DNA of 64,000 nucleotides from a virus: the IMG/VR virus record IMGVR_UViG_3300045988_171958, positions 192,001-256,000 of that record. One strand, given 5' to 3'. The stretch's first letter is position 1. Every line of letters starts with the position of its first letter. Shown one piece after another: positions 438 through 54,580 of this stretch. The notes under the pieces are model-generated. The model did not search any database, had not been told where the DNA came from, and was given only the letters and a program-made list of their open reading frames with translations. The position numbers and the translations under genes were made by a program.

Positions 438-504
438 TTCAAGTTTATATCAATGACTTGCAGTCATTACGTAAATCAATTTTATTGGATATAAGATAAG
501 GTTC

Positions 505-592
505 ATCCTGGAAGCGCCTGGGTCACACAGGGAGCGGAAAAATACTTAGAAGTATAAATTATAACCTAAGAAAAATTTCCACTCCCTGTGTG
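505..592 (+). repeat. conserved structured element, copy 1
   Basis: The module gaagcgcctgggtcacacagggagcggaaaa is followed by a long arm that closes with ccactccctgtgtg. It lies just after the topoisomerase stop codon. Confidence 0.8.
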
Positions 593-594
593 CA

Positions 595-635
595 TAACTT
601 TAGTTCTTGAACAGAACTGAAAGAGATGTTCATTA
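595..635 (+). repeat. about 40-nt mini-element, intergenic copy
   Basis: taactttagttcttgaacagaac-tgaaaga-gatgttcatta shares 17-nt and 11-nt identical blocks with 48169-48207. Confidence 0.75.
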
Positions 636-707: not shown

Positions 708-971
708 ATGATTATGAGATTTATAATTTATAAGAACAGTAGAAAATATTCAAATATCAAATTTACAGATATTGATGAATGCAAGGAATTCATTAAGTTC
801 AATGGAGACCATGATGAAGCAGCATCAAAAGGATGGTACTTTGATTTTTATGAATATCCTTCTGGTAAGTTTGTAACACGTCTTGTAGTAGAAGATACTG
901 ATAAAGGTCTTGTATTTACGGAGAATTGCCCAGAAAAGACACCAAGAAACAGAAGATTCAATAATAAATAA
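708..971 (+). CDS. hypothetical protein (87 aa)
   Basis: ATG-initiated ORF directly downstream of a promoter-like box, co-oriented with its neighbours. Confidence 0.55.
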   Translation: MIMRFIIYKNSRKYSNIKFTDIDECKEFIKFNGDHDEAASKGWYFDFYEYPSGKFVTRLVVEDTDKGLVFTENCPEKTPRNRRFNNK

Positions 972-3801: not shown

Positions 3802-3832
3802 AATAAATAAGTTAATATTAATAAAATCCACT

Positions 3833-11330: not shown

Positions 11331-12488
11331 ATGAAAACAAATCATGATAAAATTATAGTAAAAATTATTTGTGGACAAAATAAAGGAAATATTTCAAGAT
11401 TTAAAATATCTAAAATAAAAGATAATTATCCAAATATATTAAATTATATAAAAACTAGATATAAAGATAGTAATTCAATAAATGAAACTATTAATAGAAT
11501 GAAATTTGGTGGTCCAGAAATAGTACCAAAATGTCCAGTTTGTGGAAAACCAACAATTTATAAATATAAAAATATATATACATTATATTGTTCTCATGAA
11601 TGTGCTTATAAATCTAAAGAAGTATATGAAAAGAAAAAACAAACTTCATTAAAACATTATGGAGTATCTCACCCAATGAGATCAAAAGAAATAAAAGAAA
11701 AAGTAAAAAATACTAATATTGAAATTTATGGTGCAAAAACATTTGCTGAATCAAAACTTGGTAAAAAATATTTTGAGGAAAATAAAGAATTATTAGTTAA
11801 AAAAACAGAAGAAGGTATATTTAAAAAATATGGTGTTAAAAGTTATCAACAATCAAAAGAATATCAAAATAAAAAAGATGAAATATTAAAAAAAAGAAAA
11901 GAAACAAATTTAAAAAGATTTGGAGAAACTTCTTATTCAAAAACCAATGAATGGAAACAATCTTTTCAAAATAAAAAGCAAGAGATGTTGGAAAAAATGA
12001 AAGAAACATGCCTTAAAAAATATGGAAGAGAATGGTATTTTCAAACAGAAGATTCTAAACAAAAAAATTATATTACACAAAAGAAAAATGGTACATTTGG
12101 AAAATCTAAACCTGAAGTTGAACTTAAAAATTTTCTATTAAATTATTTTCCTGATTTAATATATCAATATAAATCAAAAGAATATCCATGGAAATGTGAT
12201 TATTATATTCCTACATATAAACTTTTTATAGAATTACAAGGTTCTTGGTGTCATGGAAATAAACCTTATGATCCAAATGATGAAGAATGCATTGAATTAG
12301 TTAATTTATGGAAATCAAAGCCAAATGGATTTTATAAAAGAGCATTATATGGATATACAATAGCTGATGTTAAAAAACGTAATTGGGTAAAAACTCATAA
12401 ATTAAATTTTATTGAAATTTTTGATTATTCTGATTTTAATAAAATTCTTAATAATATTAATACATATATCAAAATGCATCAAATGTAA
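11331..12488 (+). mobile_element. free-standing homing-endonuclease-like gene (zinc ribbon + K(K/H)YG repeats + Vsr/PD-(D/E)XK-like C-terminal domain)
   Basis: Lone + strand ORF between the - strand sheath and capsid genes. It has CPVCGK..CSHEC, repeated ..LK(K/H)YG.. modules, and the C-terminal motif CDYYIPTYKLFIELQGSWCHG. It is a paralog of 19321-20427. Confidence 0.65.
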
Positions 12489-17624: not shown

Positions 17625-19334
17625 TTAAAAGACTTGTTCATATTCGGATGCATGTACTATTACTTGACCCGTACATAAACTTTTCTTAATGTTTTCTTTA
17701 TTGATTTTCTTATTCTTTACACTTACTCTTATCTTATGGTCAAATCTGTCATCAGGCATAGGACCATGATTGATAATTATGATAGTTCTGTTGTTTGCCA
17801 TAGAAGTTTGAAGCATTTCCAACATCATATCTTTCATATTGTCATCCATATTTGAAAAGAGTTCATCAAGTCCTATTATATTAAAATTAACATTTGCAAT
17901 AACATTCTGAAGAATTCCAAATATAATACAAATATCTAAGGTCTTCTTCTGACCAGTTGATAAGTCTTTATATGAAATTTCTTTTTCATTATTATCAATG
18001 AATATGTGGCACTTGAATTCCTGGTCAAACTTGACAGAATAGTTTTGTTCAAGCTTATTGAGATACTTAGATATTGAATTGTTGATATGAGGTATCATAG
18101 AATCAAGCAACTTGTATCGTAATGACTTAGTGAACAATTCTGACAAATCATTCCATTCACCTTGTTCTAATTCATTATCTAATGATTCTTGTTGTAATCT
18201 CTCTAACTTGTCTTTAGCTTCTGATATCAAATTATCAAAATTATCTTTCATTAACTTAAGATTAGAATTGTAAGTTGATACTTTAGTATCAATAGAATGG
18301 ATTTCAGATTTGATATCAGAAATCAATGTATCATATTTCTTGTTTACTATATCTATCTTATCATTTATAGATAGAATTTCTTTAGATACTTCTTCTATCT
18401 TATCATTCCAATCATGCCAAACTTTAGCATAATCATTCATTTTATTGAGATATTCATCTATTTTTGATTTCTCAATATCATGACCACATGTAGGACATTT
18501 ACCTGATTTGAATTTCTCATACATCTGTTTCTGTTGCTTTCCTAAAGTAGCTGCTTCTGTACGCTTATCAACAAATTCAGATTTCTTTTTCTCTAATTCT
18601 CTTTTTTGCTCTACTATTGTATCAACTTTTTGCTTATGTTCTTCTTTTACAGATTTTCCTTGTTCAATCAAGTCATTTCTTCGCTTGTCCAATCCTGTTA
18701 TATCTATTGATGTAGCAAGTTTCTGTTGCTGATTTTCTTTCTTCTTTTTTAAAGATTCTATCTGATTAGAAGTTTCTTGTATCAATGCTTGCAATTCTGT
18801 TCCTCTTTTTGCAACATCTCTTCTTTCTTCAACTACTTCATCATTATAAGTAGTAAAAGTCTTAAAACCAAATACATCATCCAAAAAGCATTTTGTTTGA
18901 AATGGGTTCATGCTTGCTAATGACATAAACTGGTTGAACGATATGATGCACATTCTTTCTATTGCAATTCTTGGTACATCATAATATTCTTCTAGGATTT
19001 TCTGATAATCATTCTTAGATGGTGCTTGCAAATCCTTTCCGTCTATTTTTGCTACCATTTCAGAATAACAAGATCTAGAAATATAAATATCATGCTTTCC
19101 AGAAGTAAGCCATAATTCAACTTTATAGTCTTTAGTATTCCAAGCAATCAAATTTGGGTTCTTATGATCTTTTATGGTACCATAAAGACCAAATAGAATA
19201 GAATTTAATAGCATGGTTTTTCCACTTCCAATAGGACCAGAAAGCTTAATCATTCCCTTTAATTCATTAAAATTAAATTCATGAACCCCATATAAAGATC
19301 CAAAATTTTTTATTCTTATTTTATTTATTATCAT
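17625..19334 (-). CDS. SbcC/Rad50-like recombination ATPase (T4 gp46-like)
   Basis: Walker A GPIGSGKT, a long central coiled coil with zinc hook CPTCGH, signature LSTGQKKT, and Walker B IIGLDELF. Confidence 0.8.
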   Translation of the reverse strand: MIINKIRIKNFGSLYGVHEFNFNELKGMIKLSGPIGSGKTMLLNSILFGLYGTIKDHKNPNLIAWNTKDYKVELWLTSGKHDIYISRSCYSEMVAKIDGKDLQAPSKNDYQKILEEYYDVPRIAIERMCIISFNQFMSLASMNPFQTKCFLDDVFGFKTFTTYNDEVVEERRDVAKRGTELQALIQETSNQIESLKKKKENQQQKLATSIDITGLDKRRNDLIEQGKSVKEEHKQKVDTIVEQKRELEKKKSEFVDKRTEAATLGKQQKQMYEKFKSGKCPTCGHDIEKSKIDEYLNKMNDYAKVWHDWNDKIEEVSKEILSINDKIDIVNKKYDTLISDIKSEIHSIDTKVSTYNSNLKLMKDNFDNLISEAKDKLERLQQESLDNELEQGEWNDLSELFTKSLRYKLLDSMIPHINNSISKYLNKLEQNYSVKFDQEFKCHIFIDNNEKEISYKDLSTGQKKTLDICIIFGILQNVIANVNFNIIGLDELFSNMDDNMKDMMLEMLQTSMANNRTIIIINHGPMPDDRFDHKIRVSVKNKKINKENIKKSLCTGQVIVHASEYEQVF

Positions 19335-20427
19335 GATTAATAAAATGTTTTACTTCATCTAAATTAAAAAATTCAATGTAATTCAAATGATTTATTTTTG
19401 CAACTTTTCTTTTATATGGATCTCTTTCTGTCCATATTTGTATTGCATTCTTATATAGAATTTTATTTTCATTTTCATATTTATATTTCCATTTATTAAC
19501 AATGTTACTATCTTCTTCCGATTCAGGATTATAAATATGGTCGCCATGTGTCCAATATCCATTGAATTCAATAAACAAATCTTCACTAGGAATATAAAAG
19601 TCACAATTAAATGGATATCGATTACTATTATATTGTCTTATTACATCCTTATATTTTAATTTTAATAATTCAAAACATTTATCTTCTTTTTTAGATCTTT
19701 TATAAGATCCATTTTTTATTTTAGTTTGAATTATTTTATTTTGTACTTCCGGATCAGATAATTTAATTCTTAAATTTTCTCTTGCTTTAGGACATTGATT
19801 ATAATATTCATATCCGTATTTAATTAAATTGGTTTGTTTAGTTTTTTCTTTACATTTTTCAGATGATAAAGATATTTGGGCTTTTTTCCTTATATCTTCA
19901 TCACAAAAGAAATTTGCATAGCCATATTTTCTAAGTCTTGTTTCTTCTGATTTCTTTTGAATTTCTTTGGAAGAAAGAACACATTTTACTCCATATTTTT
20001 TTAAACAAGTATTTTCTTTTTTATTTTTGATTTCTTTTAATTGGAATGGATTTTCTGTACCATATTTATTCTGCCAAGTCATTTTCATCTTGGTAATTAT
20101 ACCTGGTATACCTTTACCATATTTTTTTAACCTTGTTTCTGCAATATGAATACCAACTAAATTAGATTTTTTCTTACAATCATTAGAACAATATGTCAAA
20201 TATACTAATCCAGGATGTCCATTAAATTTACAATTTTTACCACATACTGGGCACTTTGGAATTTCTTCTATATTATATTTTATTCTATATACAGTTTCTT
20301 TATAAGAGTTAAATTCTTTAAATCTATTCTTTAAATATTTTTTAACTTCATCTGTAAAAGATTTCTTATTTAATTTTAATCTTTTTTTAAAAAATTCATT
20401 AATTATATATTCATCATTGATTTCCAT
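19321..20427 (-). mobile_element. free-standing homing-endonuclease-like gene between the gp47-like and gp46-like genes
   Basis: Paralog of 11331-12488 with CPVCGKNC..CSNDC, LKKYG repeats and CDFYIPSEDLFIEFNGYWTHG. Its stop overlaps the start of the gp46-like gene by 14 nt. Confidence 0.65.
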
Positions 20428-22637: not shown

Positions 22638-22670
22638 TTTTGAAATTTTATAATTTTATTCTATATTTTA
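22638..22670 (+). promoter_or_regulatory. promoter-like box
   Basis: tttgaaattttataattttattctatatttta upstream of 22692. Confidence 0.5.
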
Positions 22671-47253: not shown

Positions 47254-47286
47254 AAGAGCAATACAGAAATGTGTTGCTCTTTGTTG
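47254..47286 (+). terminator. hairpin + T-rich tail
   Basis: aagagcaa-tacagaaatgtg-ttgctctt followed by tgttg. Confidence 0.4.
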
Positions 47287-47358
47287 ATTTAGCTTCAGCT
47301 GTACTGAAGCATGAAGTACTAAAAAAGTTGATAAAAAATGAAAATTTTTTGAAAGATC

Positions 47359-48148: not shown

Positions 48149-48259
48149 AGGTGGTTATATCAGTTGGTTAACTTAGTTCTTGAACAGAACATAAGTGATG
48201 TTCATTAGATAGCTTGCCTGATAAGCAAGAGGTCATAGGTTCAAGTCCTATATCACCTA
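48149..48259 (+). tRNA. tRNA-Ile (GAT) interrupted by a 36-nt insertion in the D-loop
   Basis: Acceptor aggtggt/atcacct, D stem tatc/gata, canonical D-loop agttggttaa followed by a 36-nt insert, anticodon stem cttgc/gcaag, loop ctGATaa, T arm atagg-ttcaagt-cctat. Removing the insert restores a normal 75-nt tRNA. Confidence 0.7.
48169..48207 (+). repeat. about 40-nt mini-element, copy inside the tRNA-Ile(GAT) D-loop
   Basis: taacttagttcttgaacagaac-ataagt-gatgttcatta. Confidence 0.75.
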
Positions 48260-48267
48260 CAAGATTC

Positions 48268-48300
48268 TTTGAAATTTTGGATATAGTTATTCTATATTTA
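48268..48300 (+). promoter_or_regulatory. promoter-like box inside the tRNA array
   Basis: tttgaaattttggatatagttattctatattta upstream of tRNA-Ile(TAT) and the endonuclease gene. Confidence 0.5.
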
Positions 48301-48397: not shown

Positions 48398-49021
48398 ATG
48401 GATTTAATAAAAAGTTATGCAAGTAAATGTTGTACAGGGCAAAAGAAAATAGCTTATTGTGTAGATTGTGGGAAAGAACTTATAATTTATAAAAGAGCTT
48501 CTTCAAAAACTTGTAGATGTGATAATTGCAGAAAAAACCGCATTAGACAAAAAAGACTACAATATAGATTAAATTTTTTAAATAATGATTATGAAATTCA
48601 TTTTGGTAGAAAATATTCAAAAGAAAGCTGGCTAGCATTACATAATGGTGGTTGTAAAGGAATACAACATCAAGGTGATTTAAGACGTAGTAAAAATGAA
48701 ATAGAATTTTGTAAATTATGTGAAGAATATTTTAATAATGTTAAACATAATGAATGTATATTTAATGGATGGGATGCAGATATAATAATAGAAGATATAA
48801 AATTCGCGGTATTATGGAATGGTCCATGGCATTATAAACAAATTACGAAATCTCATTCAGTTAAGCAAATACAAAATAGGGATAAAATAAAGATAAAAGA
48901 AATTAAAGAATCTGGTTGGACACCTTATATTATAAAAGATATGGGTAAGGCAAATAAAGATTTTGTTAAAGAAAAATTTGATGAATTCTTGAAATATTTA
49001 AAAGAAAATACTATTATTTAA
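48398..49021 (+). mobile_element. homing-endonuclease-like gene (zinc ribbon + Vsr/PD-(D/E)XK-like domain) inside the tRNA array
   Basis: I set the start at ATG 48398 because the track ORF start lies inside tRNA-Ile. Motifs are CVDCGK..CRCDNC and WDADIIIEDIKFAVLWNGPWHY. Confidence 0.6.
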
Positions 49022-49037
49022 ATAGTTAATTATATAT

Positions 49038-49119
49038 CGTGGGTGAGTGAAACGGATATTTATAAATCACGTCGGTCTCATAAGCCGTACAATAGTGGGT
49101 TCGACTCCCACACCCATCA
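49038..49119 (+). tRNA. second CAT-anticodon tRNA (Met/fMet/Ile2-like) with 16-nt D-loop and 1:72 mismatch
   Basis: Acceptor cgtgggt/acccatc (C1xC72), D stem gtga/tcac, loop ctCATaa, T arm gtggg-ttcgact-cccac. Confidence 0.6.
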
Positions 49120-49143
49120 CTAACAAAGAAATTCTAAACTTAA

Positions 49144-51781: not shown

Positions 51782-54580
51782 TTAGTTGAATTGCCTGAAT
51801 CTAGCTCTCAATGGATCTTGGTTATATTGTCCAGGCATATCATATATGCTTGGTTCATTTCCATATCCATTAGGTGATCCATAGAAATCATTCATAGATG
51901 GCAATCCTTGTTGCATACCTGTATTGTACATTGTATACATGTTAGGTATACTGGTACTTGCATTACTTTGTGTTTCTCTATATATACTAGAAGATTCTGC
52001 AGCAGCAGTAGGTAAATTTCTGTTATCCAATGATACTGTTATCTGTTTCTCTTCTTTCTTCTTTTGCAATACATTAGACATCATATCTGCTATCTTCTTA
52101 AGCATATCTAGTTTCTTCATTTCTGATTCTTCCTTTTCTATTTGTTCCCATTGTCCAGTAGCTTTCATCTCTATCTCCCACTCTTCCATGAAATCTTTAT
52201 ATTTTGTAGTATTCTTAAGAAGTGGAAGTTGTACAAAAGTCATTATCAAATCATCATGGCCGTATGCAGCAGCATAACTGCCATTTCCATTCTTATCTTC
52301 AAAATTCTCAAGCTCTGAAACAGTAAGCAAGTCTGTTATTATGACATCAAACTTCTCTAACATCATCTTAAGCAATGCACATGCAGATATCTTAGTAGCA
52401 TGACTCAATCTGATACCTGGAATTGTCTTGCTGTTTTTGAATCCATTCAAATTAGCAATATTGTCTTCTTGACTGCCTTTCTTGTATCTTATCAAATTAG
52501 CCAAGTCAAATTCACCTAATGGATTTACTTGCCATCTCCAACTTGCCTCTGGCATATATTCAGGTTCATTCAAATTCTTAAGATAGTTGTAGAATAAAGC
52601 ACCATAAGTATTCCATTCTACTGACACTATAGTCTTATTAGGATTGAATAACTGTCCATACAATACCCAGAACTCTAAGCTAGCTTGTTCCAAATCTATA
52701 GTATTGCAATGCCAATATCCTATTTGTTCAAACTTATCTTTTCCTATTACTTCTATTATGTTGAATGTTGTAAAGTCATTACCACCACCTTCTGCTAAGT
52801 CAACTAATATGATGAACCATCCAATCTTCAAATAATGCAAGTCATAATCTTTCTTGAACTTAAATTCTGTCTTATGTAAGCTGAAATACCAACTATCATC
52901 TGTAGGTGTCTCAAACAAGTAAGTCAAGTCTCTTATCTTTCCTAAGCATTCTCTTGATACAAGACATTTATCAGATGCAGAGAATTGTGTACCATATTGA
53001 TAGTAGAAAGCTTCTTCTGAACCTAAGACACCAACCATCATAGCTTTCCAAGCATTATCTCTCTTCTTCCAAATATGATTGTCAGGATCCCATTGAGGAA
53101 CTTGCCACCAATCTACTTTAAATGGAGCATACATAGACTTTCCTGTTTCTGCGGCATGCCATAGCTTATAGAACAAATTGAATCCATTTTGTGTTGACAT
53201 GATACATATATTAGAGCTTGTATCTGCAGTAACAGTAGGAAGAATGTTGTTGTAGAACAATTCAACATCATTAGGTGGACACCAAGCAAACTCATCAAGT
53301 ATCAAGAAGTTTATTGTCTTACCAAGACCGGCAGTAGGAGAGAAAGCTTCAGTAGATATTGTAGAGTTGTTGTCAAAAGCTATCTCTGACTGATTCCACT
53401 TCAAAGTACCAAGCTTCAGATGGTAAGGAAGATACAGATACATATCTTTTATCTTCTTTATCAAATCTTGTCCTGCTGGACCAGACTTAGAAAGTATCAA
53501 TGCATTTCTATCATTTCTGAACAATACTGACCAAAGACAGAATATTGCTGTAGTTGTTGAGTTGTGACTCAATATTCCATTAGTATAATATCTGTGATAA
53601 GGATGTTCTACTGAAACATCACACATAGATACTTTTGTTTTAGATACTGAAACAGACTTTACCATAGATGGTCCTCTATCTGTCATTATTTTAGATAGGT
53701 TTTCAACAAGTTTATCAGCATATATTATATCTAAGTTTTCATCAAACAACATGTGTTTGTCTGCACATTCTATAGAATACCCATTTTCAAGGATTACCTT
53801 ATATATTGCAAATGGCTTAGTATTGTAAATGTATGATATTGGTTGATATCCAACATCTGTCAATACTTTTATCCTATATTCAGAAATATCTATTTCTTTA
53901 GTGGTTTTACAGTTATCTAAAAGTTCCTTATGAAATACAAAATTGTATTCTAACCAATCAACAACTTCTACTGCTTTATAGTTTTCTTTTTTATATAGAT
54001 AATATTTCAGTTTCCAGAAAGCAGAGTTATCAAACAAGTTTTGAAATTCATAAAAAGGCAATTCAAACAAATAGTCAGATCCACTTTTTACATATTTGAA
54101 ATTCTTAAAAAGATATGTGAATTTTTGTTTACCAAACTGAATACCATAATTGTTTATGAATGCATTAGTAAACAAAAACTTCACCGTTGTATTTTGTAAA
54201 AGGCACTTTCCACTTTGTCTGCAACTTAAAAACAGGCTGAATCTGTTTTGTTGAAGATGTCTCATGTAATCTTCCTGATAGTCACGGAGTATTACTGGTT
54301 GCAAACCAGTTGGGGTCATAAGATAGCATTTGGTAGCAAAGTACAATGGATCTTCCATACAATGCATATAATCTTCTATCTCTTCTTGTGTACGCTTGAA
54401 GACCAGATCTGGCTTCAATAACTTAGTATTCTTACCAATAAAAGGGTTTGCTTTCAATGGCAAACCCTTCTTCATAGCATCTACAGCTTTCTCAAGTACT
54501 GAACAGCTCCAGATAACTGCTTCTGCCTCTTTTCCTCCTTTATCTCTCTTTACTGGATCAAATTCAAATTCTTTAGCCAT
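51782..54580 (-). CDS. terminase large subunit (T4 gp17-like) interrupted by an intein
   Basis: The Walker A motif is split as ..LSCRQSGK / intein / STTTAIF... Downstream ATPase and nuclease regions (FLILDEFAW, ..) are present. Confidence 0.85.
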   Translation of the reverse strand: MAKEFEFDPVKRDKGGKEAEAVIWSCSVLEKAVDAMKKGLPLKANPFIGKNTKLLKPDLVFKRTQEEIEDYMHCMEDPLYFATKCYLMTPTGLQPVILRDYQEDYMRHLQQNRFSLFLSCRQSGKCLLQNTTVKFLFTNAFINNYGIQFGKQKFTYLFKNFKYVKSGSDYLFELPFYEFQNLFDNSAFWKLKYYLYKKENYKAVEVVDWLEYNFVFHKELLDNCKTTKEIDISEYRIKVLTDVGYQPISYIYNTKPFAIYKVILENGYSIECADKHMLFDENLDIIYADKLVENLSKIMTDRGPSMVKSVSVSKTKVSMCDVSVEHPYHRYYTNGILSHNSTTTAIFCLWSVLFRNDRNALILSKSGPAGQDLIKKIKDMYLYLPYHLKLGTLKWNQSEIAFDNNSTISTEAFSPTAGLGKTINFLILDEFAWCPPNDVELFYNNILPTVTADTSSNICIMSTQNGFNLFYKLWHAAETGKSMYAPFKVDWWQVPQWDPDNHIWKKRDNAWKAMMVGVLGSEEAFYYQYGTQFSASDKCLVSRECLGKIRDLTYLFETPTDDSWYFSLHKTEFKFKKDYDLHYLKIGWFIILVDLAEGGGNDFTTFNIIEVIGKDKFEQIGYWHCNTIDLEQASLEFWVLYGQLFNPNKTIVSVEWNTYGALFYNYLKNLNEPEYMPEASWRWQVNPLGEFDLANLIRYKKGSQEDNIANLNGFKNSKTIPGIRLSHATKISACALLKMMLEKFDVIITDLLTVSELENFEDKNGNGSYAAAYGHDDLIMTFVQLPLLKNTTKYKDFMEEWEIEMKATGQWEQIEKEESEMKKLDMLKKIADMMSNVLQKKKEEKQITVSLDNRNLPTAAAESSSIYRETQSNASTSIPNMYTMYNTGMQQGLPSMNDFYGSPNGYGNEPSIYDMPGQYNQDPLRARFRQFN
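53561..54205 (-). mobile_element. intein (215 aa) inserted in the TerL Walker A motif
   Basis: It starts with Cys right after SGK (CLLQNTTV), has a block B-like GYSIECADKHMLF, a block F/G-like VSMCDVSVEHPYHRYYTNGILSHN, and is followed by Ser+1. Excision restores RQSGKSTTT. Confidence 0.8.

What the first reader, a model, noticed from the sequence alone, without database searches (positions are those of the whole stretch)
48149..48259. tRNA-Ile(GAT) carries a clean 36-nt insertion in its D-loop that is a copy of an intergenic mini-element
Without positions about 48172-48207 the gene is a canonical 75-nt tRNA (D arm tatc-agttggttaa-gata). The insert, with its left flank, reads TAACTTAGTTCTTGAACAGAAC-ATAAGT-GATGTTCATTA. 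It matches 595-635 (TAACTTTAGTTCTTGAACAGAAC-TGAAAGA-GATGTTCATTA): a 17-nt block and an 11-nt block are identical with the same spacing. The element folds as GTTCT-TGAAC-AGAAC, and TGAACA can alternatively pair with the downstream TGTTCA. Bacterial and phage tRNA introns are normally group I introns in the anticodon loop. A short D-loop insertion shared with a non-tRNA locus is not a described class. It could be a mini mobile element, a processed non-canonical intron, a regulatory protein-binding site, or an inactivating insertion.
Basis: seen in the sequence. Interest (0 to 1): 0.8.

Follow-up and report, generated by a model that had tools for sequence, protein, structure and literature searches.

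The report
Tiny mobile hairpin element splits tRNA
A 35-base hairpin-forming DNA element that jumps between TA sites in a group of giant human-gut phages has landed inside this phage's tRNA-Ile gene, most likely disabling a gene the phage can live without.

Summary
tRNA-Ile(GAT) at 48149-48259 carries a 37-bp insertion at 48171-48207: a 35-bp element plus a duplicated TA. Related phages have the uninterrupted gene (…GGTTA|GATAGC…).

The insert belongs to a repeat family of 35-37 bp plus TA, with about 100 copies in related human-gut phage contigs. It is always intergenic, lies in every orientation relative to genes, and often forms tandem arrays of 2-5 units.

Six independent filled/empty site pairs all show the same structure, TA-[element]-TA. 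This makes it a mobile mini-element, not a promoter, terminator or intron. Its hairpin and a loop-to-tail pairing both covary.

No transposase was found among about 190 ORFs scanned. The element is absent from bacterial genomes apart from mis-binned phage contigs.

The interrupted allele is not a one-off. It occurs in 13 independent assemblies on diverged backgrounds, next to a variable, probably selfish ORF. Sister lineages carry a 37-nt internal deletion of the same tRNA or lack it, so the gene is dispensable.

Whether the 111-nt RNA is still processed or charged cannot be decided computationally.

The element is below the usual MITE size and has no terminal inverted repeats. I rate it a new variant of a known kind, of moderate to high interest.

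The parts
48149..48170 (+). 5' part of tRNA-Ile(GAT): acceptor strand AGGTGGT, U8-A9, D-stem TATC and D-loop AGTTGGTTA. The target TA is at 48169-48170.
   Evidence: Identical to the uninterrupted gene in L004, L283 and L287. A full tRNA is called once the insert is removed.
48171..48205 (+). 35-bp mini-element ACTTAGTTCTTGAACAGAACATAAGTGATGTTCAT. Hairpin H1 has arms at 48171-48180 and 48186-48196 (A48191 bulged) and loop TGAAC at 48181-48185. The tail GATGTTCAT is at 48197-48205; its GTTCA is complementary to the loop.
   Evidence: Absent from empty alleles. nhmmer E = 9.6e-11 against the family profile. Covariation of H1 and of the loop-tail pairing.
48206..48207 (+). Second copy of the target TA (target-site duplication, or a shared core dinucleotide).
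   Evidence: All six filled/empty pairs read TA-[element]-TA against a single TA in the empty site.
48208..48259 (+). 3' part of tRNA-Ile(GAT): D-stem GATA, anticodon arm (GAT), variable loop, T arm, acceptor strand and A73.
595..635 (+). Intergenic copy of the family: TA + 37-bp element (597-633) + TA. It lies between a structured GC-rich module and a promoter-like site.
   Evidence: Orthologous sites in relatives hold 1-3 tandem units.
500..592 (+). GC-rich structured module (short hairpin CCWGG-N6-CCTGG plus a long hairpin CACACAGGGAG...CTCCCTGTGTG) directly upstream of the intergenic copy. It recurs at several loci, usually with an element beside it.
   Evidence: alignment of contexts; fold z = -4.9. 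No Rfam family.
47292..47310 (.). Unoccupied target: hairpin GCTTCAG-CTGTA-CTGAAGC. The TA at 47302-47303 carries a 35-bp element of the same subfamily in L003 and L237.
962..963 (.). Unoccupied target TA next to the stop codon of ORF 708-971. It is occupied in L239.
22649..22650 (.). Unoccupied target TA in the loop of an AT-rich hairpin. It is occupied in L242, L258, L259 and L267.
3804..3805 (.). Unoccupied target TA. It is occupied in L236.
48398..49021 (+). Variable 207-aa ORF 190 nt downstream of the interrupted tRNA: a zinc ribbon plus a C-terminal D...IIIED...WNGPWH motif. It is probably a free-standing homing-endonuclease-like gene.
   Evidence: Absent from L004, L283 and L287. No Pfam, PHROG, PDB or NCBIfam assignment; the nuclease reading is an inference from the motif. 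Every genome with the identical protein carries the filled allele.

Best explanation
The insert is one copy of a family of ultra-small, non-autonomous mobile DNA elements. These are specific to a clade of roughly 250-300 kb, distantly T4-like phages of the human gut.

The unit is 35-37 bp. It has an 11-bp interrupted hairpin (H1) and a 9-nt tail whose GTTCA is complementary to the hairpin loop. It has no terminal inverted repeats. It inserts at TA dinucleotides, preferring T-TA, and ends up flanked by TA on both sides.

One such event put it between A21 and G22 of the D loop of the phage's only tRNA-Ile(GAT) gene. The interrupted gene most likely gives no normal tRNA, or a poorly functional one. 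This is tolerated because the gene is dispensable in this clade.

The interrupted haplotype then spread by recombination to diverged genomic backgrounds, possibly dragged along by the adjacent selfish ORF.

Shown:
- the insertion and its empty site
- the family, with identical boundaries and TA flanks at six independent sites
- covariation of both helices
- population frequency of the filled allele
- loss of the tRNA in sister lineages

Inferred:
- DNA-level transposition by an unidentified, probably phage-encoded enzyme. The tiny size and the lack of terminal inverted repeats argue for a single-strand or site-specific mechanism rather than a classical DDE cut-and-paste.
- loss of tRNA function
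- hitch-hiking with the neighbouring ORF
For: Empty alleles are seen in L001-L005, L237, L283, L287, L295, L303-306, L308, L309 and L312.

Six filled/empty pairs all have the structure TA-[ACTT...GTTCAT]-TA.

The family:
- About 100 copies, never inside an ORF apart from one 9-codon C-terminal extension, and in all four orientations relative to flanking genes.
- Tandem arrays of 2-5 units, with copy number differing between genomes at the same site.
- Target preference: T at position -3 in 17 of 23 unique sites.

Covariation: 6 pairs show changes on both sides, 0 of 500 shuffles reach the observed score, and slid controls score far lower.

The element is found only in this phage clade. The metagenome hits are human-gut assemblies. 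The only 'genome' hits are phage contigs binned into two Romboutsia MAGs, 92-98% identical to the phage loci. Nothing is found in deposited phage genomes.

The filled allele occurs in 13 independent samples with an identical insert. Backgrounds 1 kb away are 90.9-100% identical. The nearest empty haplotypes differ by 0-1 mismatch per flank.

A 37-nt internal deletion allele occurs in 8 assemblies, and the gene is absent at this position in six loci (L297-L302) from three or more genomes.
Against: - No transposase or recombinase family was found in 40 window ORFs plus 148 further clade ORFs, so the mobilising activity is unknown.
- There are no RNA data. Secondary-structure energetics do not show that the insert destroys the cloverleaf: cloverleaf+H1 is -23.3 against an MFE of -27.9 kcal/mol, while the uninterrupted gene is -15.8 against -18.0.
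- The filled allele is common. One variant (L285) carries an acceptor-stem change, G6·U67 to A6-U67, that improves pairing. This fits continued selection on the tRNA equally well.
- The exons show no decay, although the divergence available is too small to expect any.
Confidence: 0.72

Rival explanations
1. The element is an intervening sequence at the RNA level. The 111-nt transcript would either be tolerated as a tRNA with an extra arm in the variable part of the D loop, or have the insert removed by a protein endonuclease and RNA ligase. Either way the phage keeps a working tRNA-Ile(GAU).
For: - The TTA duplication lets the RNA keep a native U20-U20a-A21 next to the D stem. The insert folds on its own as H1, and cloverleaf+H1 is only 4.6 kcal/mol above the MFE, against 2.2 for the intact gene.
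- The filled allele persists in 13 samples with intact exons, plus one pairing-improving acceptor change.
- Family members also sit in 5' leaders downstream of promoter-like sites.
Against: - No ribozyme or intron family matches, and 35 nt is far too short for self-splicing.
- Bacteria have no tRNA splicing endonuclease (established knowledge).
- Copies lie in both orientations relative to transcription, and the flanking TA duplication is a DNA-level signature.
- The same tRNA is deleted or missing in sister lineages, so no rescue is needed.
- Of 101 copies, only this one lies in a tRNA.
Confidence: 0.1
2. The element is primarily a cis-regulatory or structural module of the phage: a protein-binding site, a 5'-leader or processing hairpin, or part of a PeSL-like promoter/terminator cassette. 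On this view it is copied around by the phage's very active homologous or microhomology-mediated recombination rather than by a dedicated transposase. The tRNA copy would be an accident of that process.
For: - The phage is T4-like: Gp23, Gp20 portal, gp46/47-like and topo II. T4-type phages carry conserved intergenic promoter + stem-loop cassettes that shuffle genes (PMC2839356, PMC4122927).
- Several copies keep a fixed distance of 11-12 nt from a TTGAAA-N16-TATATT promoter-like site, or directly follow a conserved terminator-like module.
- No transposase was found.
Against: - The six polymorphic insertions are at unrelated sites that share only TA, with identical element boundaries. Homologous recombination needs flanking homology, and template switching would give variable ends.
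- The promoter-like hexamers lie outside the element.
- Orientation relative to genes is not constant.
Confidence: 0.13
3. The insertion is maintained because it protects the genome from the neighbouring homing-endonuclease-like ORF, by splitting that enzyme's recognition site in tRNA-Ile(GAT). This would resemble 'collaborative homing' of ORF-less introns with free-standing endonucleases.
For: - All 10 genomes with the identical 207-aa protein are filled, and the 3 genomes lacking the ORF are empty.
- The ORF is 190 nt from the interrupted gene.
Against: - Genomes whose ORF is 95-96% identical (P0068, P0087) have the empty allele or the deletion allele. L003 and L237, with a related 222-aa ORF, are empty.
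- Physical linkage within 250 bp explains the association.
- The nuclease nature of the ORF is only inferred.
Confidence: 0.05

Closest known systems
Bacterial MITEs with TA target duplication (IS630/Tc1-mariner-derived elements, e.g. Neisseria Correia elements)
   Same: Non-autonomous, multi-copy and intergenic. Inserted at TA and flanked by TA on both sides. Insertion polymorphism between close relatives. Folds as a hairpin.
   Different: 35-37 bp, against 50-800 bp for prokaryotic MITEs (PMC11602168). No terminal inverted repeats: the inverted repeat is internal and followed by a 9-nt asymmetric tail. No parent IS or transposase found. Confined to a phage clade, whereas MITEs are rare in viruses (PMC11602168).
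REP / REPIN elements mobilised by RAYT (Y1 HUH) transposases, and IS200/IS605-derived PATEs
   Same: Size range (about 20-40 nt). An imperfect palindrome with a bulge. Extragenic and clustered. No terminal inverted repeats. An asymmetric unit in which pairing between an internal segment and the end could guide cleavage.
   Different: Direct tandem arrays rather than inverted doublets. No GTAG-type 5' tetranucleotide. A TA on both flanks, whereas IS200/IS605 leave no duplication and need a 4-5 nt target. No Y1 transposase found in about 190 ORFs. Phage rather than chromosome.
PeSLs (promoter-early stem-loop cassettes) of T4-type phages
   Same: T4-like phage. Conserved intergenic stem-loop repeats associated with sigma70-like promoters and terminators. 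Located in hyperplastic regions, including the tRNA cluster, where genes are swapped.
   Different: PeSLs are about 100-bp composite promoter+terminator cassettes that move genes by homologous recombination (PMC2839356). Here the promoter-like site lies outside the element, and the element itself inserts precisely at unrelated TA sites.
tRNA introns (bacterial and phage group I introns in the anticodon loop; archaeal BHB introns, some in the D loop)
   Same: An intervening sequence within a tRNA gene whose removal restores a canonical tRNA. The D-loop position is known for some archaeal non-canonical introns (own knowledge).
   Different: No group I fold or size, and no BHB motif by inspection. 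The host domain lacks the splicing endonuclease. The insert is a member of a DNA repeat family with a target duplication.
Rickettsia palindromic elements (RPEs)
   Same: Small palindromic mobile repeats that can sit inside functional genes, including RNA genes, without necessarily destroying them (own knowledge).
   Different: RPEs are about 100-150 bp, chromosomal, and typically in-frame in protein genes.

Membership tests
MITE | Flanking target-site duplication of 2-10 bp | tested here: met
   TA on both sides in six filled/empty pairs. Definition from PMC11602168.
MITE | Terminal inverted repeats of at least 10-15 bp at both ends | tested here: not met
   The left arm of H1 is terminal, but the right arm ends 9 nt before the right end. 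The two termini (ACTTTAGTTC... / ...GATGTTCAT) are not inverted copies of each other (sequence inspection; alignment A1).
MITE | Length 50-800 bp in prokaryotes | tested here: not met
   35-38 bp without the TA.
MITE | A related autonomous element or transposase that mobilises it | tested here: inconclusive
   No transposase family in 40 window ORFs plus 148 clade ORFs. Perhaps half of the roughly 290-kb genome was not examined.
REP/REPIN-RAYT | Short imperfect extragenic palindrome in many copies | tested here: met
   H1 hairpin with a bulge. All copies intergenic. About 6-10 copies per genome found with restrictive patterns.
REP/REPIN-RAYT | Inverted doublets (REPINs) and a cognate Y1 (RAYT) gene | tested here: not met
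   Arrays are head-to-tail direct repeats with a 39-bp period. No Y1_Tnp hit. The RAYT part is inconclusive because genome coverage is incomplete.
PeSL | Contains a sigma70-like early promoter together with the stem-loop | tested here: not met
   Promoter-like sites (662-689; 48269-48298) lie outside the element. The element occurs upstream of, downstream of, and away from such sites.
PeSL | Spreads by homologous recombination between cassettes | tested here: not met
   Precise insertions at six unrelated sites that share only TA.
Group I tRNA intron | Conserved group I core, more than 200 nt, anticodon-loop position | tested here: not met
   37 nt, in the D loop. No Rfam intron or ribozyme match at E <= 1.
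Archaeal-type (BHB) tRNA intron | Bulge-helix-bulge at the exon-intron junctions, cut by the splicing endonuclease | tested here: inconclusive
   No BHB-like pairing of the two junctions by inspection or in the predicted folds. No dedicated BHB search was run. Absence of the enzyme in bacteria is from established knowledge.
IS200/IS605-derived element (PATE) | No TIR, no TSD, subterminal hairpins, insertion 3' of a fixed 4-5 nt target, Y1 TnpA | tested here: inconclusive
   No TIR, and a hairpin is present: met. The target is only (T)TA, and TA is present on both sides. No TnpA found.

The most novel reading that the evidence does not exclude
The family may be a previously unrecognised kind of ultra-small (35-bp) phage transposable element. 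It would move as a single-stranded hairpin and use pairing between its own loop and its 3' tail to define the cleavage site. Its copy in the D loop would then be either tolerated or removed at the RNA level, so that the phage still makes a working tRNA-Ile. That would be the first intervening sequence in the D loop of a bacterial-virus tRNA.
Probability: 0.1. Interest if true: 0.9.

Novelty: new variant of a known kind. Interest (0 to 1): 0.6.

Why it matters
Transposable elements are rare in virulent phage genomes. The smallest accepted prokaryotic MITEs are about 50 bp and have terminal inverted repeats.

This is a 35-bp, asymmetric element with clear signs of recent transposition: six polymorphic sites, copy-number-variable arrays and a hit inside a tRNA gene. 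It occurs in an abundant, uncultured clade of human-gut jumbo phages. It therefore points to a mobilising activity that has not been identified, and that probably works on very short, structured DNA.

The locus also gives a natural series for asking what phage tRNA genes are for. Intact, interrupted, internally deleted and absent tRNA-Ile(GAT) alleles all circulate in one phage population. It also bears on how selfish genes in tRNA clusters drag neighbouring alleles through populations.

Tried and rejected
1. **Promoter.** TTGAAC...CATTA inside the element looked like -35/-10 hexamers. However, the scan places the promoter-like sites outside the element, the spacing varies by 11-13 nt, and orientation relative to genes is inconsistent.

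2. **Terminator.** No T-run follows H1, and none was called.

3. **Preference for hairpin loops.** The tRNA D loop, the 47292-47310 hairpin and the 22.6-kb hairpin suggested this. Over 23 unique sites against 3,026 control TA sites it is not significant: Mann-Whitney p = 0.38, and stems of at least 6 bp occur at 5 of 23 sites against 10% of controls.

4. **H1 and H2 as a classical pseudoknot.** Rejected on sterics: a 2-nt linker would have to span an 11-bp stem. This is inference. The two are alternative or intermolecular pairings.

5. **Known RNA family or ribozyme.** None found for the element, the module or the tRNA region.

6. **Host-derived MITE.** The element is absent from 185,579 species-representative genomes, except for phage contigs binned into two Romboutsia MAGs.

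7. **'The filled allele is unique to this genome.'** This was my interim conclusion. Exact-protein look-ups overturned it.

8. **Immunity to the neighbouring endonuclease-like ORF.** Weakened by many ORF-positive genomes with the empty allele.

9. **Thermodynamic folding as a test of tRNA function.** Not discriminating, because even the intact gene's cloverleaf is not the MFE.

10. **Transposase hunt.** About 190 ORFs were scanned against Pfam and PHROGs. Only nuclease-type domains turned up: TnsA-like N in L248:7256-7729, endonuclease-I-like in L308:1503-2231, LAGLIDADG, and two DUF7487 ORFs.

11. **The full-text paper library searched.** No paper in it contains the element sequence.

Full report
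**1. The observation**

The window holds a 25-gene tRNA cluster at 42.6-49.7 kb. At 48149-48259 both ARAGORN and the Rfam tRNA model recognise only a truncated tRNA-Ile(GAT), from 48193 onward, at 35 bits. Neighbouring tRNAs score 45-73 bits. The Rfam alignment borrows AAGUGAU from the insert as a surrogate acceptor strand.

Deleting 33-41 nt from the D loop restores a full-length call that begins at 48149. Five IMG/VR relatives carry the uninterrupted gene ...CAGTTGGTTA|GATAGCTTGCC....

Comparison of the two forms gives an insert of 37 bp at 48171-48207. This is a 35-bp element, ACTTAGTTCTTGAACAGAACATAAGTGATGTTCAT, plus a second TA. Because TTA both precedes and ends the insert, its phase is ambiguous by up to 3 nt.

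It is far beyond chance.

**2. What the insert is**

Pattern scans of IMG/VR, JGI/ENA metagenomes and GTDB genomes, followed by a profile search, recovered about 100 copies (profile searches). All are in one clade of 130-300-kb phage contigs from human-gut samples. The consensus is TA-ACTTTAGTTCTTGAACAGAACTGAAAGTGATGTTCAT-TA.

The only 'bacterial genome' hits are contigs binned into two uncultured Romboutsia MAGs. These are 92-98% identical to the phage loci, so they give a weak host hint at most.

The phage itself:
- It is distantly T4-like, with Gp23 capsid, Gp20 portal, prohead protease, baseplate, gp46/47-like nuclease, topoisomerase II, dCMP deaminase and Dam.
- Its portal is at most 36% identical to those of any deposited phage.
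- The window is 100% identical to GCA_902729945.1 contig CACVDK010000001.1, 293,853 bp.

Copies never lie inside an ORF, apart from one that extends a 1311-aa ORF by nine codons. They occur between co-directional, convergent and divergent genes in both orientations. Sigma70-like TTGAAA-N16-18-TATATT sites are separate from the element, lying either downstream of it or just upstream of its reverse complement. The element is therefore neither a promoter nor a terminator.

Copies are often arranged as head-to-tail arrays of 2-5 units that share the TA. Copy number at the same site differs between genomes.

**3. Mobility**

Reconstructed empty sites were searched in all loci held. Six independent insertions have an unoccupied counterpart in a close relative, and four of those counterparts are in this window:
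- the tRNA D loop (filled here)
- the loop of the hairpin GCTTCAG-CTGTA-CTGAAGC (empty at 47292-47310; filled in L003 and L237 by the same 35-bp subfamily)
- the TA at the stop codon of ORF 708-971 (empty at 962-963; filled in L239)
- an AT-rich hairpin at 22649-22650 (filled in L242, L258, L259 and L267)
- 3804-3805 (filled in L236)
- the stop codon of a 1311-aa ORF (filled in L006)

In every case a single TA in the empty site corresponds to TA-[ACTT...GTTCAT]-TA in the filled one. In two cases the base before the left TA differs from the T before the right TA, so the repeat is exactly TA.

Across 23 unique sites the base before the TA is T in 17. Identical boundaries at unrelated sites argue for a dedicated cutting and joining activity. 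They argue against homologous recombination or template switching.

An apparent preference for hairpin loops did not survive a control.

**4. Structure of the element**

In an alignment of 37 distinct copies, two pairings covary.
- The hairpin H1 (11 bp with one bulge) shows T-A to A-T in one subfamily, and A-T to G-C and T-A to C-G in distant copies.
- The pairing between the loop TGAAC and the tail GTTCA shows G-C to A-T in four sequences and C-G to T-A in one. It is 98% paired overall.

Six pairs have changes on both sides. None of 500 shuffles reaches the observed score, and slid controls are far lower.

The two helices cannot coexist as a standard pseudoknot, because only 2 nt link them across an 11-bp stem (inference). 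They are alternative or intermolecular pairings, or are used within a nucleoprotein complex. This recalls how HUH transposases read their cleavage sites by internal base pairing, but that is an analogy only.

No transposase, HUH, DDE, serine or tyrosine recombinase family was found in 40 window ORFs and 148 further ORFs of the clade. Only small nuclease-type genes appeared.

**5. Consequence for the tRNA**

The interrupted gene is the only tRNA-Ile(GAT) in the cluster.

Secondary-structure prediction is not decisive. The MFE pairs CUUGAAC of the insert with the T arm, but a cloverleaf with H1 as an extra arm is only 4.6 kcal/mol worse. The intact gene's cloverleaf is itself 2.2 kcal/mol above its own MFE.

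From what is known of tRNA architecture, a 37-nt extension next to G18-G19 sits at the elbow used by RNase P, the ribosome and other partners. Impairment is therefore likely, but this is inference.

The population data are more informative. Exact-protein look-ups with two neighbouring genes and with diverged variants of the adjacent ORF gave the following:
- **Interrupted allele:** 13 independent samples, with an identical insert.
- **Intact allele:** at least 15 samples.
- **Internal 37-nt deletion:** 8 samples. It removes the D and anticodon arms, leaving AGGTGGTTA|GTCATAGGTTCAAGTCCTATACCACCTA.
- **No gene between tRNA-Gln and tRNA-Ile(TAT):** six loci (L297-L302) from three or more further genomes.
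- **Gene at a different position:** in L001 it sits at a different place in the cluster.

The gene is therefore dispensable and mobile as a cassette, so a null insertion would be tolerated.

On the other side, one filled variant (L285) changes the acceptor pair G6·U67 to A6-U67. That is what selection for a working tRNA would favour. It is a single transition, and the same polymorphism exists among intact alleles (L002).

**6. Why the interrupted allele is common**

The nearest intact haplotypes (L287, L283) differ from the window by 0-1 mismatch in the 271 nt to the left and 1 mismatch in the 187 nt to the right of the insert. The insertion is therefore recent and arose once.

Yet it sits in genomes whose tRNA-Asn to tRNA-Thr region, 1 kb away, is only 90.9-99.5% identical to the window, and whose gene content nearby differs. 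The haplotype has thus been moved between backgrounds by recombination.

Directly downstream, at 48398-49021, lies a variable 207-aa ORF with a zinc ribbon and a C-terminal motif reminiscent of Vsr/PD-(D/E)xK nucleases. It has no database assignment. It is absent from some relatives, where a tRNA gene sits instead.

Every genome with the identical protein carries the insertion. Hitch-hiking with a selfish gene is a plausible driver, but it is not shown. The alternative, that the insert protects against this enzyme, is weakened because genomes with 95-96% identical ORFs carry intact or deleted alleles.

**7. Comparison with known systems**

The element behaves like a MITE: it is non-autonomous, multi-copy and TA-flanked. 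It fails two defining features, terminal inverted repeats and the 50-800-bp size range (PMC11602168).

It resembles REP/REPIN and IS200/IS605-derived elements in size, asymmetry and hairpin. It differs from them in forming direct arrays, in having TA on both flanks, and in having no detectable Y1 transposase.

It shares its habitat with the PeSL cassettes of T4-type phages (PMC2839356, PMC4122927). Unlike them it carries no promoter and inserts at unrelated sites.

It is not a group I intron, and it shows no archaeal-type splice motif. No paper in the full-text library searched contains its sequence.

**8. Verdict**

The D-loop insert is a recent transposition of a 35-bp phage-specific mobile hairpin element into a dispensable tRNA gene, now circulating at appreciable frequency.

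I rate it a new variant of a known kind, with interest 0.6. The mobilising enzyme and the fate of the 111-nt transcript remain open. The latter decides whether the more exotic intron-like reading (about 10%) holds.

Noticed in passing
window 500-592 (also L016, L098, L119, L122, L032, L054, L180, L209): A GC-rich structured module in an AT-rich genome: a short hairpin CCWGG-N6-CCTGG followed by a long hairpin (CACACAGGGAGCGGAA...TTCCRCTCCCTGTGTG) with a conserved ATATAAWTTAT-like apex. It recurs after several unrelated genes (topoisomerase subunit, a 1311-aa ORF and others), in either orientation, nearly always with a mini-element beside it. Fold z = -4.9 and no Rfam family. It could be a terminator cassette or an unknown structured RNA or DNA.
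   Followed up: partly
L289-L294, L296, L307 (position homologous to window 48149-48259): A sister lineage carries tRNA-Ile(GAT) with a 37-nt internal deletion that removes the D and anticodon arms. What remains is an acceptor/T-arm minihelix, AGGTGGTTAGTCATAGGTTCAAGTCCTATACCACCTA. The deletion has the same length as the insertion here, probably by coincidence.
   Followed up: partly
window 48398-49021: A 207-aa ORF with an N-terminal CxxC...CxxC zinc ribbon and a C-terminal DADIIIED...WNGPWH motif. It shows presence/absence and domain-swap polymorphism (207-aa and 221-aa forms with unrelated N-terminal halves). More than 1,400 near-identical variants occur in gut metagenomes. It is probably a free-standing homing endonuclease in the tRNA cluster, but it is unassigned in Pfam, PHROGs, NCBIfam and PDB sequences.
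   Followed up: partly
window about 49035-49125: A tRNA-like sequence between the 207-aa ORF and tRNA-Asn. It has a good T arm (GTGGG-TTCGACT-CCCAC), a 6-bp acceptor, a CAT 'anticodon' in a poor stem, and an oversized D region (GTGA-16 nt-TCAC). Neither ARAGORN nor Rfam calls it. It is conserved in L003.
   Followed up: no
window 11331-12488 (+) and 19321-20427 (-): Two paralogous DUF7487 ORFs with a zinc finger, repeated ...KKYG... modules and a C-terminal CD(Y/F)YIP...FIE(L/F)(Q/N)G.W.HG motif (Vsr-like by eye). They are wedged next to the major capsid gene and between the gp46-like and gp47-like genes. These are probably further free-standing endonuclease genes.
   Followed up: no
L001 2271-2345 versus window 47282-47330; L283 and L287 downstream of tRNA-Ile(GAT): tRNA genes behave as cassettes. 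In L001 tRNA-Ile(GAT) sits between tRNA-Leu(TAA) and tRNA-Glu, exactly where the window has a hairpin-containing spacer. In L283 and L287 a tRNA(CAT) replaces tRNA-Ile(TAT) behind the same promoter-like sequence. In L004 a tRNA-Met occupies the place of the 207-aa ORF.
   Followed up: partly
window 51782-54580 (-); L284 and L273: The large terminase ORF is unusually long (932 aa). In some relatives it is called as two ORFs (392 + 738 aa), which suggests an intervening element (intein, intron or endonuclease) in some alleles.
   Followed up: no
window 48192-48198: The tail of the insert (AAGTGAT) can replace the true 5' acceptor strand, pairing 6 of 7 with ATCACCT. This is why tRNA finders report a D-arm-less 67-68-nt 'tRNA' starting inside the insert. 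It is probably coincidental, but it could give an aberrant RNase P substrate.
   Followed up: no
L248:7256-7729 (-): A 158-aa ORF with a TnsA-like endonuclease N-terminal domain (Pfam E = 1.8e-14). It lies 1.2 kb from a mini-element copy in a related contig. It is the only transposon-associated domain seen in the clade and was not found in the window.
   Followed up: no
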